64,000 nucleotides of DNA, from the NCBI GenBank assembly GCA_902767375.1, contig CACXGV010000001.1:1080-65079 (forward strand), written 5' to 3'. Shown piece by piece: positions 57,208 to 62,182 of the stretch (position 1 is its first letter; every line of letters starts with the position of its first letter). The position numbers were made by a program, and so were the translations under genes. Origin of the DNA: an uncultured Erysipelotrichaceae bacterium (GTDB lineage Bacteria; Bacillota_I; Bacilli_A; RF39; UBA660). The notes beneath the pieces were generated by a model. The model saw only the letters and a program-made list of their open reading frames with translations. It searched no databases and was not told the origin of the DNA.

Positions 57208-58491
57208 TTAACTTTTTAAAAGTCTATTAAGTTCAACTGCATACTCTAAAGGAAGTTCTTTTTTAAAATCACTTATAAATCCTAAGATTATTAACTCCTT
57301 AGCTGCATCTTCATCCAAGCCTTTACTCATCAAATAAAATAATTTCTCTTCACTAACCTTTGATACTGTAGCCTCATGTTCTAAAGTACTATCACTATTT
57401 AAAACTATATTCTTAGGGATCGTATCGCTTTTAGATATATCATCAAGTAGTATCGTATCACATTTAATAATAGCTTCTGAACCAGTTGCATTACCACCTA
57501 TCTTAACAGTTCCTCTATAGTTAGCAATACCTCCACCTTCAGCAATACTTTTAGATAATATATTACTCTTGGTATTTTTACCAATATGAATCATTTTAGC
57601 TCCAGCATCTAAATTCTGCCCTTTTTTAGCATATGCAATTGATACTGAATTTGCTCTAGCATTATCTCCTTTTAAGATACATGATGGATACTTCATCGTT
57701 ACTCCTGAACCTAAATTACCATCAACCCATTGCATATAACCATCTTCTTCAACAATCGCTCTTTTCGTAACTAAATTATAAACATCAGTACTCCAGTTTT
57801 GAATCGTACTATATTTACATTTACCGCCTTTTTTAACAAAGATTTCAACTACTCCAGCATGTAAAGAATTTTCCGCATAACTTTCGGCTGTGCAGCCTTC
57901 AATATAAGATAGTTCTGCTCCTTCATCAACAATAATAATTGTTCTTTCAAATTGTCCCATTGTAACACTATTAATTCGAAAATAACTTTGCAGTGGTCTA
58001 TCAACCTTAACACCTTTAGGAACATAAATAAATGAACCACCACTCCATAAGCATCCATTTAAAGCTGTATATTTATTTTCACTGTATTTAACTAAACTAT
58101 TAAAATATTCTTTAAATAAATCTGGATATTCCCTTAAAGCCTCATCGGTAGATAAAAATATAACTCCATCAGCACTTTTCATATTATGATAAAAAACTTC
58201 ACTATCAAGCTGATTAGATACTCCGCATAAATAACTCTTCTCAGCATTAATAACCCCTAAATCATTAAAAGTCTTTCTAACATCAGTATCTACCTTATCC
58301 CAATCATCAGTAAGTTCTAATCCTTTTTTATAATAATTAATCTTATCAAAATCTATCTTAATTTCTGGTCCAAAATCAGGATTCTCAAGTTCTAAAAACT
58401 TTTCAAAAGATTTTAATCTAAAATCTCTCATCCACTCGGGCTCACCTTTTAACATAGATATTTTAGTAATATAATCTTTCGTTAATTTCAT
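57208..58491 (-). CDS. sufB: Fe-S cluster assembly scaffold protein SufB
   Basis: EPEWMRDFRLKSFEKF at the N-terminus and EHEATVSKVSEEKLFYLMSKGL...ELPLEYAVELNRLL at the C-terminus parallel Firmicutes SufB. Confidence 0.85.
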   Translation of the reverse strand: MKLTKDYITKISMLKGEPEWMRDFRLKSFEKFLELENPDFGPEIKIDFDKINYYKKGLELTDDWDKVDTDVRKTFNDLGVINAEKSYLCGVSNQLDSEVFYHNMKSADGVIFLSTDEALREYPDLFKEYFNSLVKYSENKYTALNGCLWSGGSFIYVPKGVKVDRPLQSYFRINSVTMGQFERTIIIVDEGAELSYIEGCTAESYAENSLHAGVVEIFVKKGGKCKYSTIQNWSTDVYNLVTKRAIVEEDGYMQWVDGNLGSGVTMKYPSCILKGDNARANSVSIAYAKKGQNLDAGAKMIHIGKNTKSNILSKSIAEGGGIANYRGTVKIGGNATGSEAIIKCDTILLDDISKSDTIPKNIVLNSDSTLEHEATVSKVSEEKLFYLMSKGLDEDAAKELIILGFISDFKKELPLEYAVELNRLLKS

Positions 58492-58535
58492 AAAACATCA
58501 CAAACGTATTATAACACAAAAAAAGATATAATAAA

Positions 58536-60098
58536 CTAATTATTATATCCCGAAAATTCAATTATTTTTCCCATTTTCTTTTCGCTTTGAGTATAACTAT
58601 TAATACTACTAACTCCCATAGTTTTAGCTACATCGGATATACAATCACATATTTCAATTGCTTCTGATAGATATTTAGCCCCAACTACTTCTGAATTATC
58701 ATAACCAGCAAGTCCAAAAGCCATCTCTATAATTGAAAGAGATAAAGCTGGATTATATCTATATTCATAATAAGAACGATGATTCTTACTTGTAATATCT
58801 AATAAAACACTAATTAAATGATGTTTCATATCTTCATCGTTTTCAAATACTAAACCAGTTTTAATTTCATACTTTTCAATATTACTTATAAGCACTTCTC
58901 TTAAATATTTATCATCTAGTTCTTTTATAGTCATACAATCAAATCTTCTTGTAAAAGCTGGATCTTTTTGTAAATAAGTATCATATTCTCTAATAGTAGT
59001 AGCCCCAATTATCTTAACACTACCATCTTCAATATATGGTTTTAAAATATCTAATAAATCGATACTTGTTCCTTCAGCACTTCCTGCTCCTAAAGCTGTA
59101 TGAAGTTCATCCATATACAAAATAATACTACTATTTTCTCTTAAAAATTTAACTAGTAACTCCATCTTTTTTTCAAAATCTCCACGATATCTACAACCAG
59201 CAACTAAAGAAGATGGTGATATTTTTAATATTTTTTTACTATTTAAATAATTACCAACATTACTATTTTGAATCTCATAAGCAAGCCCTTCAACTACAGC
59301 AGTTTTACCAACCCCAGGTTCTCCAATTAATATTGAACTAAATGATGGACTCATCATCGTAGCACCTAATCTTCTAATTTCTTTTTCTCTACCAACTGCC
59401 GGATTAACTAAAAATGTTTTATCATCAATAAACTCAAAATTATGAGTTATACTTTTTAATATATTAAGATTACTTAATACTGTTCTTGGCTCATTATTAG
59501 TAACTATTCTATTTTGAATAATCTTTCCTTCTCGATTACCTTTTTCATCTCTTAAGGTTACTAAAGCATCTTCTTTATCGGTAATCTCTCTACATATTCT
59601 TAAATAATAAGAATACTTTTCTCTTATTTCTTCTAACAATATATTTAAATTTTCATACTCTCTAGGTTGATATTCTCTATAAATAAGCTTGCACATCTTA
59701 CTAAAATCTTCTCCCAGTAATACTTCTTTAATTGCCAGTCTATCTACAAAAAGTATTGAAGAATAAATATTAACTAAAGTACATGCTGCTTCTATATTTC
59801 TTTTATTATCTCCTGCTTGAATAGGCATAACCAAATATGGCCTATCTTTAATAAGTCTTCCATTAATTCTATTAAATAAACTATACTCAACAATATTTAA
59901 AAGTTCATCAATACATTGAGAAGACTTAATATCAACTGTTTTTTCCTCATAACTAGTCCCATTAAAATGTCTAATAATTATTTGATTCTTTTTAAAACCA
60001 CTACCAACTAAAATATCTATTTTATCTTTTCCATCAGTAAAACTAAATCCCCCATTAGTAAACATATAAGTTACAGTTTGTTCTAATATACTATTCAT
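58536..60098 (-). CDS. AAA+ ATPase: novel ~230-aa N-domain plus a single ClpA/ClpB D1-like module
   Basis: GREKEIRRL, Walker A IGEPGVGKTAVVEGLA, CRYRGDFEKK, Walker B ILYMDELHTALGAG, GATTIREYDTYLQKDPAFTRRF. No second AAA domain and no Clp N-domain recognised. Confidence 0.75.
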   Translation of the reverse strand: MNSILEQTVTYMFTNGGFSFTDGKDKIDILVGSGFKKNQIIIRHFNGTSYEEKTVDIKSSQCIDELLNIVEYSLFNRINGRLIKDRPYLVMPIQAGDNKRNIEAACTLVNIYSSILFVDRLAIKEVLLGEDFSKMCKLIYREYQPREYENLNILLEEIREKYSYYLRICREITDKEDALVTLRDEKGNREGKIIQNRIVTNNEPRTVLSNLNILKSITHNFEFIDDKTFLVNPAVGREKEIRRLGATMMSPSFSSILIGEPGVGKTAVVEGLAYEIQNSNVGNYLNSKKILKISPSSLVAGCRYRGDFEKKMELLVKFLRENSSIILYMDELHTALGAGSAEGTSIDLLDILKPYIEDGSVKIIGATTIREYDTYLQKDPAFTRRFDCMTIKELDDKYLREVLISNIEKYEIKTGLVFENDEDMKHHLISVLLDITSKNHRSYYEYRYNPALSLSIIEMAFGLAGYDNSEVVGAKYLSEAIEICDCISDVAKTMGVSSINSYTQSEKKMGKIIEFSGYNN

Positions 60099-60106
60099 CT
60101 TATCAC

Positions 60107-61063
60107 CTATACTCCTGGAAACTTAATTATATTTCCATTATTTTTATTATTACTTTTCTCTCTTAGTTTTCTAAGAATACTATCTTTAATATTATCATCT
60201 AAATAACATACTTCTATAGCTTCTAAAAAGTCTCCTAAACTTACTTCTGTTCTATCATCCATACAACATGCTGAAAAAGCACATTTAACTAAATAAATAA
60301 TATCCATAACATCTACTTTTAAATCATATAAAGACATTAATATATTAAGTATTCTAAACTTTTCTAGTTCTCCACCTTCAATACTTACCATTAAGTCATC
60401 TTCTAATTTATTAGTTCTTTCAAATAATATTCTTAAAACCTCATCTTTTGTAAAATAACTATCATGATTAGCATCTATATTATTTTCTAGTTCTTCCCAT
60501 CTAATACGAGCATATTCATTTAAAGGATCATCTTCATCAGTAGTTATCATTTCTTGATATAAATTATCATAGTATTCATATCTTCTAGCAAAATAATAAG
60601 CATAACTATCTATTCTATCTTTAATTAAACTAAACTTTAACTTACTTTCTTCCTCACTTATCTCATCATAAGCATAATCAAGCATAACCCTATCTAAAGC
60701 CCCTGGATCTTCATCAGATAATGCCTCTGCTAAATGCTCTCCATCCATCATAAGCATCGTCTTATATATTTCATAAACCCTATTTAATGCTTTTAAATTA
60801 TTTAAAGAAACATTTTTATCTTTACATAACGCGATAGTTGTTCTTTGATGAGAAGAATACATATCACAAAATATTAAAAATGCAAAAAATTGATAAATAT
60901 CCGGTTCACCTTTAAACACAGTCTTAATATGATTATTAATACTAGTTACTTCAATCTCTCCATCTTTTCTAACTCTAAATTCAAATCTTTGATATCCTGT
61001 AATTAAATCAAAGCCACCGTTATAATATAAATAATTAACTGAATCTTCTATAAAATTATCCAT
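60107..61063 (-). CDS. paralog of the AAA+ protein lacking the ATPase core
   Basis: The N-terminus MDNFIEDSVNYLYYNGGFDL matches MNSILEQTVTYMFTNGGFSF, and the tail GNIIKFPGV matches GKIIEFSGYNN. No P-loop. Gaps of 8 nt to both neighbours. Confidence 0.6.
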   Translation of the reverse strand: MDNFIEDSVNYLYYNGGFDLITGYQRFEFRVRKDGEIEVTSINNHIKTVFKGEPDIYQFFAFLIFCDMYSSHQRTTIALCKDKNVSLNNLKALNRVYEIYKTMLMMDGEHLAEALSDEDPGALDRVMLDYAYDEISEEESKLKFSLIKDRIDSYAYYFARRYEYYDNLYQEMITTDEDDPLNEYARIRWEELENNIDANHDSYFTKDEVLRILFERTNKLEDDLMVSIEGGELEKFRILNILMSLYDLKVDVMDIIYLVKCAFSACCMDDRTEVSLGDFLEAIEVCYLDDNIKDSILRKLREKSNNKNNGNIIKFPGV

Positions 61064-61071
61064 AAACCCTC

Positions 61072-62157
61072 CTAAAAACTAATCTTACTAATTGGATGAA
61101 CTATTTCTCCCGGATAATCAAAAGATACCCTATCATTCATCTTTCTTTTAGCTTTCATTATCTCTAATTGTTTAATCCCTCTATCTTTAACCTTAACAAT
61201 ATTAGGATTATCACATAAATATCTATTATCAACTGCATATTCAAATGTTTTATTACCATATAAAATATATTCAGAATTAAATTTTAATGGTTTAATTGCT
61301 TTAGGGAATTCTCCTTTACTCCTTGTAATATTCCATGTATTATCTAAAAAATAATACTCACCATCAAACTTAACTATATTAAATGCATGATTTCTATTAA
61401 ATATCGTTCTTGCATCTATTTTAAACTCTGGATTATTTAAAAGAAGCATTGTACTATTGGCTATTCCTGTGCATAACCCATATCTTTTAAACAAAACAGT
61501 CTCCACAAGCCCTACTTCTTCATCTAATCCATCAACTGGATTATCCACCTTAGCAATATATTTACCACTCTTATCAATATTTTCCGCTAAATATTCCACA
61601 TTTTTTTGCAAATAATTACTAACCAATATAATTATTTGTAAATCACTAAATCTACCTTTACTCTTTAATTCTAAAACTATATCTCTTATTCTTTTAAGAG
61701 TATCTTTATCCATATATTGATTACCATTGTAATTAAGAGCATTTTGATGATAACTAACCCCACTAACAAGCATTAAATCATCAAAATCAACACCCCACAT
61801 TATATAAGAAAGAGGCACTGCAAACTTACATTTATCTATTTCAAAAGTTCTAATCTCACTACGATCCTTAACCTCATAATCATCTAATATTCTAATCACG
61901 ATATCTTTCTTATCAGGTAAATTATCATTTATAAACTTAACAGTTTCAAAACTATCAACATTAACTGTATCAAAACCATTAAGTTCCATAATACTTAAAA
62001 CTCTTAAAAAGAAATCAAAATTATTCTTTACTGTTTCATAATCAACATATAAACAAAATACTTTATCATATATTTCATCATCACTATAATTTAAAATATC
62101 TTTTAAATTAACTGCCTCAGTAAAGAAGTTTGTTTTATTCCAGTCTTTTCTTTCCAT
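61072..62157 (-). CDS. transglutaminase-like cysteine protease-fold protein
   Basis: Cys in KRYGLCTGIANSTMLLL, His in RNHAFNIVKF, Asp in YFLDNTW, in the Cys-His-Asp order typical of the transglutaminase-like superfamily. Confidence 0.65.
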   Translation of the reverse strand: MERKDWNKTNFFTEAVNLKDILNYSDDEIYDKVFCLYVDYETVKNNFDFFLRVLSIMELNGFDTVNVDSFETVKFINDNLPDKKDIVIRILDDYEVKDRSEIRTFEIDKCKFAVPLSYIMWGVDFDDLMLVSGVSYHQNALNYNGNQYMDKDTLKRIRDIVLELKSKGRFSDLQIIILVSNYLQKNVEYLAENIDKSGKYIAKVDNPVDGLDEEVGLVETVLFKRYGLCTGIANSTMLLLNNPEFKIDARTIFNRNHAFNIVKFDGEYYFLDNTWNITRSKGEFPKAIKPLKFNSEYILYGNKTFEYAVDNRYLCDNPNIVKVKDRGIKQLEIMKAKRKMNDRVSFDYPGEIVHPISKISF

Positions 62158-62163
62158 AATAAA

Positions 62164-62182
62164 AACCCCTTTTGTAGGGGTT
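62164..62182 (-). terminator. GC-rich hairpin between the 547-aa gene and the three-gene operon (terminator or leader structure)
   Basis: AACCCCT / AGGGGTT 7-bp stem with loop TTTGT. The transcript continues UUUUUAUU and then the ATG of the 361-aa gene. The only SD-like element (AAGGGG) lies in the 3' arm. Confidence 0.55.

What the first reader, a model, noticed from the sequence alone, without database searches (positions are those of the whole stretch)
58536..62157. Tight three-gene operon: transglutaminase-like protease, AAA-less paralog, single-ring ClpA/B-D1-like AAA+ with a novel N-domain
The three genes are separated by only 8 nt each.
- The 361-aa protein has a transglutaminase-like Cys/His/Asp core (GLCTGIA, NHAFN, LDNTW).
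- The 520-aa protein has a bona fide Clp D1-type AAA+ module (GREKEI, GEPGVGKTA, RYRGDFEKK, YMDELHT, DPAFTRRF). It has no Clp N-domain, no second ring and no recognisable ClpP-docking loop. Instead it has a ~230-aa N-domain.
- The 318-aa protein repeats that N-domain (..V.Y.(F/Y).NGGF..) and the C-terminal lid/tail (G(K/N)II(E/K)F(S/P)G), but the ATPase core is cleanly missing.

An ATPase plus an ATPase-less mimic plus a cysteine protease/transamidase looks like a self-contained system for regulated unfolding, cleavage or protein modification. I do not recognise the combination.
Basis: partly seen in the sequence, partly recalled or inferred. Interest (0 to 1): 0.6.

Follow-up and report, generated by a model that had tools for sequence, protein, structure and literature searches.

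The report
Transglutaminase-like enzyme with ATPase-less Clp partner
An uncultured small-genome gut or rumen bacterium carries a rare accessory gene cassette of unknown function: a cysteine enzyme of the transglutaminase fold, a one-ring Clp-type protein-unfolding motor with a new front domain, and a conserved copy of that motor with the ATP-burning part cut out.

Summary
Three intact minus-strand genes lie 8 nt apart. They encode a transglutaminase (TGase)-fold protein with an invariant Cys229/His257/Asp272, a 318-aa protein, and a 520-aa ATPase whose core is a ClpC-D1 module with all motifs. Profile comparison shows that the 318-aa protein is the ATPase's N-domain plus lid plus C-terminal tail, without the nucleotide-binding subdomain (98.3%, E 2.5e-14).

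- The full trio occurs only in this species and one other lineage.
- The conserved unit is TGase plus the 318-aa protein (at least 16 protein clusters, always adjacent).
- One lineage has TGase plus ATPase without the 318-aa gene.
- Both the TGase and the ATPase type also occur alone elsewhere.
- The 318-aa gene is not decaying: dN/dS is 0.27-0.56, its length is constant, and it forms one old clade.

The cassette fills a variable slot between spoVS and sufB that is empty in sister species. A strain with 99% identical flanks carries a TGase/318 allele only about 77% identical.

The N-domain family is very rare: 15 clusters among 1.84 billion proteins. It has no Pfam, PDB, phage or plasmid match.

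Function is unknown. My best reading is a TGase enzyme with a dedicated adaptor or regulator and an optional unfoldase.

The parts
61072..62157 (-). 361-aa cytoplasmic transglutaminase-fold enzyme. Residues about 15-150 form an N-terminal alpha/beta domain of unknown kind. Residues about 170-300 form the TGase core with Cys229/His257/Asp272.
   Evidence: The ORF is. It matches Pfam DUF553. The triad is invariant in alignment A3.
60107..61063 (-). 318-aa ATPase-less member of the N-domain family. It consists of the novel N-domain (about 1-185), a helical AAA+ lid remnant (about 206-301) and a disordered Lys/Asn-rich tail ending in IIKFPGV.
   Evidence: The ORF is. hhalign against the ATPase family is. 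The AF2 model has pLDDT 83.5. Only the lid matches solved structures (RuvBL1/2 lids, about 95 residues).
58536..60098 (-). 520-aa single-module ClpC-D1-type AAA+ ATPase. It consists of the same novel N-domain (about 1-177), a linker, the D1 core (about 231-412), a divergent lid and a tail ending in KIIEFSGYNN.
   Evidence: The N-domain HMM scores E 8e-48.
61064..61071 (-). 8-nt spacer between the TGase and 318 genes. The GGAGG Shine-Dalgarno sequence overlaps the TGase stop codon, so translational coupling is plausible.
60099..60106 (-). 8-nt spacer between the 318 and ATPase genes. The AGGTGAT Shine-Dalgarno sequence overlaps the 318 stop codon.
62164..62182 (-). Terminator-like GC hairpin of the upstream 547-aa gene. 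It ends 6 nt before the TGase ATG and marks the left edge of the cassette.
60143..60342 (.). Recombination breakpoint inside the 3' part of the 318-aa gene. In strain contig L071, sequence to the right (lower coordinates) is at least 99% identical. Sequence from about 60243 up to 62237 is only 60-84% identical.
57208..58491 (-). sufB, the conserved right flank of the variable slot, 44 nt downstream of the ATPase gene. It has its own extended -10-like TGTTATAAT at 58508-58516 and is followed by a hairpin plus T-run.

Best explanation
This is an accessory cassette, exchanged by recombination. It sits in a variable slot between the core genes spoVS and sufB in a genus of about 1-Mb uncultured rumen and gut Bacilli.

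**Components.** The working core is a cytoplasmic Cys-His-Asp enzyme of the transglutaminase fold. It could be a protease, deamidase or transamidase; which one is not known. Its dedicated partner comes from a very rare protein family built from a novel N-domain, an AAA+ lid and a short basic-hydrophobic C-terminal tail. That family exists in two forms:
- a complete, apparently active ClpC-D1-type single-module ATPase;
- a derivative from which the nucleotide-binding subdomain has been removed.

This species carries both forms.

**Inferred mechanism.** The parts the two forms share (N-domain, lid or tail) bind the TGase enzyme or its target. The ATPase-less form would then act as an ATP-independent adaptor or regulator of the enzyme. 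The ATPase form would assemble into a ring that uses its conserved pore-loop tyrosine to unfold or present the same target. Where both are present, they would compete or cooperate on the same site.

**Shown:** domain homology, intact motifs, purifying selection, gene linkage and cassette exchange.

**Inferred:** any physical contact, the chemistry of the enzyme, and the biological role.
For: **Homology and integrity**
- The 318-aa family aligns to the ATPase family as N-domain plus lid plus tail (hhalign 98.3%, E 2.5e-14).
- All ATPase motifs are intact and the core aligns without gaps to ClpC1 D1.
- The TGase triad is invariant and the fold is confirmed.

**Linkage**
- The 318-type gene lies directly after the TGase gene in every locus where the upstream DNA is visible. 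These are the window, L040, L041, L071, L072, L047, L048, L037 and L038, plus L039, where the contig starts inside the upstream TGase ORF so only its C-terminal part is visible.
- An ATPase-type member (P0007, 570 aa) directly follows the TGase in another lineage that has no 318-aa gene.
- The trio recurs in a divergent lineage, L072, with the ATPase N part 53% identical and the same 8-nt spacers.
- In the window, the SD sequences overlap the preceding stop codons.

**Selection**
- dN/dS is 0.24-0.35 for the TGase and 0.27-0.56 for the 318-aa gene.

**Accessory nature**
- The slot is empty (spoVS directly followed by sufB) in G021 and G007.
- Only 3 of 24 genus genomes have the N-domain, and 6 of 24 have a clear TGase homologue, with a further weak hit in G009.
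- TGase plus most of the 318-aa gene were replaced as one block between strains whose flanks are at least 99% identical.
Against: - No interaction was tested, and no multimer prediction was available.
- All TGase-linked cases may go back to one or two ancestral events, so the linkage is not many independent observations.
- ATPase-type members occur without a TGase in four contexts. These are: after a TtcA-like gene with a convergent clpP; after Lon_C/DUF3841 genes; after rimM-trmD; and one uncharacterised context.
- More distant TGase homologues occur alone in about 17 genomes.
- The conserved tail is also present in ATPases that have no TGase neighbour, so it cannot be a TGase-specific docking peptide.
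- In one metagenome contig (L038) the TGase reading frame is broken while the 318-aa gene is intact. This could be an assembly error.
Confidence: 0.42

Rival explanations
1. Conflict cassette (toxin-immunity or anti-phage defence). The TGase-fold enzyme is a toxic effector, either a protease or a deamidase. The 318-aa protein is its co-evolving inhibitor. The ATPase, where present, is a sensor or trigger that removes the inhibitor.
For: - Distribution within the genus is patchy.
- The cassette sits in a variable hotspot that is empty in sister species and elsewhere holds other cargo: a reverse transcriptase in strain L071, and a ~345-aa protein of unknown family with an XRE regulator in G011.
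- The enzyme-plus-partner block was replaced by a ~77%-identical allele within one species.
- Both genes evolve 2-4 times faster than sufB.
- The family is extremely rare.
Against: - There is no PADLOC match beyond generic AAA hits.
- There is no phage or plasmid homologue.
- There is no secretion or trafficking domain.
- TGase homologues stand alone, without a 318-aa gene, in many genomes. A toxin should not do this, unless other neighbouring genes serve as immunity.
- dN/dS is well below 1 across the whole genes.
Confidence: 0.2
2. Only the TGase/318 pair is a functional unit. The 520-aa ATPase is an independent stand-alone chaperone or unfoldase of the same family. It happens to lie in the same insertion hotspot and works on its own substrates, as its relatives next to ttcA/clpP or rimM-trmD presumably do.
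For: - The ATPase is absent from the syntenic locus in G019, G001 and the P0134 and P0136 lineages.
- ATPase-type members occur without a TGase in four other contexts.
- In strain L071 the recombination tract replaced TGase plus 318 but left the ATPase untouched.
- This genus holds several other D1-only Clp-like ATPases with other N-domains: Clp_N, ankyrin, and a short acidic N-terminus.
Against: - The ATPase shares its rare N-domain with the 318-aa protein and with nothing else among 1.84 billion proteins.
- It follows the TGase directly in the P0007 lineage.
- It follows TGase-318 with the same 8-nt coupled spacing in two divergent lineages.
Confidence: 0.25
3. The 318-aa gene is a decaying partial duplicate of the neighbouring ATPase gene and has no function of its own.
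For: It lacks the whole ATPase core and lies next to a full-length paralogue.
Against: - Eighteen sequences of 314-323 aa, 50-99% identical, all have open frames.
- dN/dS is 0.27-0.56.
- They form one clade, separated by a long branch from all ATPase-type members, and that clade is not sister to the adjacent 520-aa gene.
- The gene is retained in lineages that have no ATPase gene at the locus.
- It has its own set of 36 invariant residues, including C66, D67, C80 and D82, which the ATPase family does not share.
Confidence: 0.02

Closest known systems
D1 module of class-I Clp/Hsp100 ATPases (ClpC, ClpC1, ClpA, ClpB)
   Same: Residues 231-412 align without gaps to ClpC1 D1 (E 8e-42). Walker A (GEPGVGKT), Walker B (DE), the pore-loop YRG, sensor-1 (GATT) and the Arg finger (RRF) are all conserved.
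   Different: - It is a single module with no D2, so it lacks the region that carries the ClpP-binding loop.
- It has no Clp_N domain and no M-domain.
- Its lid is too divergent to hit Pfam AAA_lid_9.
- It has a novel ~177-aa N-domain and a conserved K-I-I-E-F type tail.
ATPase-less paralogues that regulate Clp-related machines. From my own knowledge: plant ClpT1/ClpT2 (Clp N-domain-only proteins), and LAP1/LULL1 (AAA-like activators of Torsin that do not bind nucleotide).
   Same: A relative of the motor has lost ATP binding yet is conserved. It presumably acts as a regulator or adaptor.
   Different: Here the whole nucleotide-binding subdomain is deleted, so the protein cannot take a subunit's place in a ring as LAP1 does. 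It keeps the lid and tail as well as the N-domain. Its constant neighbour is a TGase-fold enzyme, not ClpP or the motor. This is a resemblance only; nothing was tested.
p97/Cdc48 with PNGase (from my own knowledge): a TGase-fold enzyme recruited to an AAA+ unfoldase through the motor's C-terminal tail.
   Same: A TGase-fold enzyme is combined with an AAA+ protein that has a conserved, disordered C-terminal peptide. PNGase is among the weaker structural matches of the TGase model (rank 6).
   Different: The two are not homologous beyond the fold. No PUB domain was detected. The tail is also present in family members that have no TGase neighbour.
MoxR-DUF58-transglutaminase operons: TgpA of Pseudomonas (from my own knowledge), and the PFNA cluster of bifidobacteria, whose abstract lists five core genes (PMC8430577). 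Also the Anbu operons that include TGase-like genes (PMC3235984; operon content from my own knowledge).
   Same: A bacterial operon that joins an AAA+ ATPase with a transglutaminase-like protein.
   Different: Those operons use MoxR-class ATPases, DUF58/vWA partners and membrane-bound TGases. Here the ATPase is Clp-D1 class, all the proteins are soluble, and there is no DUF58.
Streptococcus pyogenes TglA (PDB 9crn), and the putative cysteine protease 3isr of Cytophaga hutchinsonii
   Same: These are the best structural matches of the TGase core (Foldseek E 2.4e-5 and 8.9e-5, probability 1.0). 9crn is also the best sequence match around the His-Asp motif.
   Different: Only about 160-230 columns align, with TM about 0.25 and 11-13% identity. 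The N-terminal ~150 residues have no match. No paper on 9crn was found in the library, so it gives no functional lead.

Membership tests
Class-I Clp/Hsp100 (ClpA/ClpB/ClpC) | Two AAA+ modules (D1 and D2) in one chain | tested here: not met
   TIGR02639 matches only model positions 116-365 of 734, at 169 bits against a cut-off of 993. PDB alignments cover D1 only. The protein ends about 108 residues after the D1 core.
Class-I Clp/Hsp100 (ClpA/ClpB/ClpC) | D1 catalytic and pore motifs: Walker A, Walker B, pore-loop Tyr, sensor-1 and Arg finger | tested here: met
   The motifs are invariant or nearly invariant in alignment A2. The core aligns without gaps to ClpC1 D1.
Class-I Clp/Hsp100 (ClpA/ClpB/ClpC) | Clp_N (PF02861) N-terminal domain | tested here: not met
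   There is no Pfam hit before residue 235. By contrast, the genus's 566-aa ClpC-like protein does hit Clp_N.
Class-I Clp/Hsp100 (ClpA/ClpB/ClpC) | ClpP-docking (I/L/V)-G-(F/L) loop | tested here: inconclusive
   In known members this loop lies in D2, which is absent here. The only FGL triplet lies in a conserved lid helix. Whether the K-I-I-E-F tail docks on ClpP is unknown. ClpP is encoded elsewhere in the genome and is convergent with the ATPase gene in one other lineage.
AAA+ superfamily (Pfam PF00004) | Score above the Pfam gathering threshold | tested here: met
   The 520-aa protein scores 49.2 bits against a cut-off of 21.2. The 318-aa protein has no hit.
Transglutaminase-like / papain-like cysteine enzymes (Pfam DUF553, PF04473) | Cys-His-Asp triad in order on the TGase core fold | tested here: met
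   The protein scores 24.3 bits against a cut-off of 20.5. C229, H257 and D272 are invariant in 15 sequences. Foldseek matches TGase-fold structures with probability 1.0.
MoxR-DUF58-TGase (TgpA / PFNA type) operon | MoxR-class ATPase, a DUF58/vWA partner and a membrane-anchored TGase | tested here: not met
   The ATPase is Clp-D1 class. There is no DUF58 or vWA protein in the locus. I saw no N-terminal signal peptide or hydrophobic stretch when reading the sequence; no predictor was run.
Known anti-phage defence systems (PADLOC 2.0) | Match of the component proteins to a system's models | tested here: not met
   The TGase and the 318-aa protein have no hit. The ATPase has only weak generic AAA hits (IetA E 1.7e-4, TRIP13).
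MAG6410-family transglutaminase-related lipoproteins (NF045980) | Full-length match and a lipoprotein signal | tested here: not met
   The score is 28.7 bits against a cut-off of 450, covering only the catalytic core (residues 221-306). There is no lipobox at the N-terminus.

The most novel reading that the evidence does not exclude
The cassette encodes a new kind of ATP-dependent protein-processing machine. In it a transglutaminase-fold cysteine enzyme takes the place that ClpP has in Clp proteases. The D1-only ring unfolds substrates chosen by its novel N-domain and hands them to the TGase enzyme. The ATPase-less paralogue binds through the shared N-domain, lid or tail, either as a pseudo-subunit or as a competitive brake. 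Because enzyme and brake are swapped together between strains, the machine would be a diversifying component, possibly used in conflict.
Probability: 0.1. Interest if true: 0.8.

Novelty: new variant of a known kind. Interest (0 to 1): 0.5.

Why it matters
**For the AAA+ field.** Clp/Hsp100 motors are textbook two-ring or ClpX-type machines that work with ClpP or as disaggregases. Here a ClpC-D1 module works as a free-standing platform.
- In this group of tiny-genome gut and rumen bacteria it carries exchangeable N-domains: Clp_N, ankyrin, a short acidic N-terminus, and the new domain described here.
- In one branch it has produced a conserved derivative with the ATPase cut out. That derivative has stayed next to a TGase-fold enzyme across deep divergence.

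**If the proteins interact.** It would be a new way of coupling an unfoldase, or its ATP-free shadow, to a non-ClpP hydrolase or transamidase. It would also be a natural example of how pseudo-ATPase regulators arise.

**Strain-level replacement.** The replacement of the enzyme-partner block within one species points to selection for diversity, which is typical of conflict systems.

**Limits.** The system is very rare, is known only from uncultured organisms, and has no functional lead yet.

Tried and rejected
- **Known families for the 318-aa protein and the N-domain.** Pfam, NCBIfam, PHROGs and PADLOC gave nothing credible.
- **PDB profile search with the 318 family.** Only chance-level hits.
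- **Foldseek of the 318 model.** Against the PDB, only local lid matches to RuvBL1/2. Against viral structures, nothing.
- **Phage and plasmid tblastn.** The TGase query (phages only) and the 318 query (phages and plasmids) gave no match.
- **HExxH-type neighbours.** I tested whether the 344-aa neighbour of the TGase in G011 is related to the 371-aa gene upstream of the ATPase in L020. There is no similarity, so I dropped the idea.
- **S. pyogenes TglA (9crn).** I found no paper on it. The "TglA" hits in the library concern the unrelated 3-thiaglutamate peptide.
- **P0161.** This 2161-aa hit of the N-domain profile is a PKD-repeat protein that matches only profile positions 8-37 ten times. I treated it as spurious.
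- **Wider genome searches for the N-domain.** Searches of 399 genomes at class level and 401 at family level found it only in the window's own genome.
- **Fe-S link.** A TtcA-like gene lies upstream of distant ATPases and sufB lies downstream here. I considered a link to Fe-S metabolism, but sufB is simply the conserved flank of the slot, even when the slot is empty. I did not pursue it.


Full report
**1. What is in the sequence**

Each junction is 8 nt long. In each, a Shine-Dalgarno sequence overlaps the stop codon of the preceding gene: TAG-GAGGGTTT-ATG and TAG-GTGATAAG-ATG. A terminator-like GC hairpin at 62182-62164, belonging to the upstream 547-aa gene, ends 6 nt before the first ATG. 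sufB follows 44 nt after the third gene. It has its own TGTTATAAT element and is followed by a hairpin plus T-run. The window is 24-33% G+C. It comes from a 1.05-Mb, 76-contig genome. Related records are titled as uncultured Erysipelotrichaceae or Bacilli MAGs (metagenome-assembled genomes) from rumen, human gut and rabbit.

**2. The three proteins**

*361-aa protein.*
- It passes the Pfam DUF553 (transglutaminase-like) threshold over residues 171-297.
- In an alignment of 15 homologues down to 29% identity, Cys229 (YGLCTGIAN), His257 and Asp272 (DNTW) are invariant. So are several residues of the N-terminal ~150-residue region (D92, D93, R99, W121, N144-G145-N146).
- The AlphaFold2 model (pLDDT 82, pTM 0.86) matches TGase-fold structures best: S. 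pyogenes TglA 9crn, a putative cysteine protease 3isr and TGase 4xz7. Arylamine N-acetyltransferases and PNGase match more weakly.
- The N-terminal domain has no match.
- I saw no N-terminal signal peptide when reading the sequence.

*520-aa protein.*
- It matches ClpA, ClpB and ClpV models only over their D1 part.
- Residues 231-412 align without a gap to ClpC1 D1 (E 8e-42). Walker A, Walker B, the pore-loop YRG, sensor-1 and the RRF arginine finger are all conserved.
- It has no Clp_N domain, no M-domain and no second ring.

*318-aa protein.*
- It matches no family in four libraries.
- Pairwise BLASTP against the 520-aa protein is weak.
- The comparison of a 16-sequence alignment of its family (A1) with a 12-sequence alignment of the ATPase family (A2) is strong. 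Probability is 98.3%, E 2.5e-14, with 314 aligned columns and a single long gap that removes the nucleotide-binding subdomain.
- Its AlphaFold2 model (pLDDT 83.5) shows a helix plus a four-stranded sheet, then a helical region, then a C-terminal helical bundle, then a disordered tail.
- Only the bundle matches solved structures: the lids of RuvBL1/2, about 95 residues, at rmsd 4-5 Å.

*Shared tail.* Both families end in a Lys/Asn-rich linker followed by a (K)-I/V-I/L-x-F/L motif.

**3. How rare the family is**

A profile of the N-domain alone (A4) was scored against 1.84 billion representative proteins. It found 15 clusters with E ≤ 0.001. They show only two architectures: about 316-323 aa without an ATPase, and about 500-570 aa with one. 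One hit (P0161) is a spurious repeat protein and another is a 92-aa fragment.

Among species-representative genomes, the domain occurs in 3 of 24 genomes of the genus. It occurs in no other genome of 401 sampled from the family or 399 sampled from the class.

**4. Is the trio conserved?**

No, not as a trio.

*Contexts found*

| Arrangement | Where |
|---|---|
| spoVS - TGase - 318 - sufB - ssb (no ATPase) | G019, G001, contigs carrying P0134 and P0136 |
| TGase - 318 - ATPase | this species (L040, L041, L071) and one divergent lineage, L072 (TGase 68%, 318 67.5%, ATPase N part 53% identical, same 8-nt spacers) |
| spoVS - TGase - ATPase (570 aa), no 318 | P0007 lineage |
| ATPase after a TtcA-like gene, with a convergent clpP; no TGase | P0006, P0010, P0013 |
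| ATPase after Lon_C/DUF3841 genes; no TGase | P0012 |
| ATPase after rimM-trmD; no TGase | P0003, which has two N-domains |
| ATPase in an uncharacterised context; no TGase | P0008 |

- More distant TGase homologues (28-42% identical) stand without any N-domain partner in about 17 genomes.
- The constant association is therefore TGase plus the ATPase-less protein. The ATPase is either an alternative second component or an added third one.

**5. The 318-aa gene is not a decaying copy**

- Eighteen sequences of 314-323 aa, 50-99% identical, all have open frames.
- dN/dS (Nei-Gojobori) is 0.27-0.56 for the 318-aa gene, 0.24-0.35 for the TGase and 0.09-0.14 for sufB. dS is near saturation in this AT-rich DNA, so the ratios are if anything overestimates.
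- On a tree built from N-domain plus lid, the ATPase-less proteins form one clade (100% support) on a long branch. The adjacent 520-aa protein is not their sister.
- The ATPase-less form therefore arose once and long ago. It has its own invariant residues, including C66, D67, C80 and D82.

**6. An accessory cassette in a hotspot**

- In G021 and G007, spoVS is followed directly by sufB, so the slot is empty.
- In G004 the slot holds a ~345-aa protein of unknown family.
- In G011 and G006 it holds the TGase plus that protein. G011 also has an XRE-type membrane regulator and a 183-aa protein there.
- In this genome a TasA-like adhesin gene lies between spoVS and the TGase.

Contig L071 comes from a strain whose ATPase, sufB, ssb and downstream genes are 99-100% identical to the window. 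It nevertheless has a TGase only 75% identical and a 318-aa protein only 72% identical.
- Nucleotide identity falls from at least 99% to 60-84% at about position 60243, inside the 3' part of the 318-aa gene. It stays low up to 62237.
- Beyond that point L071 has a 370-aa reverse transcriptase instead of the adhesin gene.

Enzyme and partner were therefore exchanged as one block.

**7. Interpretation**

*Shown:*
- two homologous partner forms, one apparently an active motor and one without the motor;
- a TGase-fold enzyme with an intact triad;
- persistent linkage of the enzyme with the ATPase-less form, and recurrent linkage with the ATPase form;
- purifying selection;
- accessory status and block replacement.

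*Inferred:*
- the shared parts of the two forms contact the enzyme or its target;
- the ATPase-less protein is an adaptor or regulator;
- the ATPase is an optional unfoldase for the same target.

A role in conflict (toxin-immunity or defence) fits the hotspot, the patchiness and the allele replacement. It has no direct support: there is no PADLOC, phage or plasmid match, and the TGase occurs alone elsewhere. The ATPase may equally be an independent chaperone that shares only ancestry with the 318-aa protein.

I could not test interactions.

**8. Context among Clp-like proteins of this genus**

The genus also carries three other D1-type proteins:
- a core, syntenic 327-341-aa D1-only ATPase after tuf and a YitT-like membrane-protein gene;
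- a 566-aa ClpC-like protein with Clp_N, D1 and a lid but no recognisable D2, lying next to cysS;
- in G012, an ankyrin-D1 protein followed by a 962-aa protein of unknown family.

The D1 module is thus used as a platform with exchangeable N-domains. The protein studied here is one more variant of it.

**9. Verdict**

This is a new variant built from known kinds of parts, very rare, and of unknown function. Interest is moderate.

Noticed in passing
L071:37-1149 (strain contig of the same species, directly upstream of its TGase gene): A 370-aa reverse transcriptase stands where this genome has the TasA-like 547-aa gene. Its matches are Pfam RVT_1, a generic PADLOC RT model, UG17 DRT and partial group II intron RT. 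Its type (DGR, defence RT or intron remnant) is not resolved.
   Followed up: partly
G000:C54 = L015:1292-2275. Orthologues are at L014:6656-7654 and L016:6077-7102.: A 327-341-aa protein made only of a ClpA/ClpC D1 module with a short acidic N-terminus. It is a core, syntenic gene of the genus, in the order fusA - tuf - YitT-like membrane protein - this gene.
   Followed up: partly
L078:3309-5009 (G004:C1): The ClpC-position gene, next to cysS, encodes only 566 aa. It has two Clp_N repeats, D1 and AAA_lid_9, followed by about 170 residues with no recognisable second ATPase module. ClpC therefore seems reduced to one ring in this genus.
   Followed up: partly
L011:7001-11482 (G012:C2): A 522-aa D1-only ATPase with an ankyrin-repeat N-domain is followed, after 24 nt, by a 962-aa protein with no family match. 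This is another candidate two-gene module built on the same ATPase platform.
   Followed up: no
L034:5475-6509, L084:1894-2940, L085:3772-5929: A ~340-348-aa protein family with no Pfam, NCBIfam or PADLOC match occupies the same spoVS-sufB slot, with or without the TGase. The G011 member has an HELSH motif. G012 has two tandem copies.
   Followed up: partly
L019, L020, L042 (metagenome contigs of a spore-former that carries a gerA operon): ATPases with the same N-domain lie 57 nt after a TtcA-like PP-loop gene. They are convergent with clpP, and the two genes' ends overlap or nearly touch. This may bear on whether the K-I-I-E-F tail has anything to do with ClpP.
   Followed up: partly
L038:4881-5992: In one metagenome contig the TGase frame is split by a frameshift with a short duplicated stretch, while the downstream 318-aa gene is intact. 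This is either an assembly error or a lineage that is losing the enzyme.
   Followed up: partly
L074:5105-7261 (P0003): A 718-aa family member carries two tandem copies of the novel N-domain in front of the ATPase.
   Followed up: no
window 58508-58516 (minus strand): An extended -10-like TGTTATAAT lies only about 16 nt before the sufB ATG, with no visible Shine-Dalgarno sequence. A similar TGTTATTAT lies before the hairpin upstream of the TGase gene. Short or leaderless transcripts may be common here.
   Followed up: no
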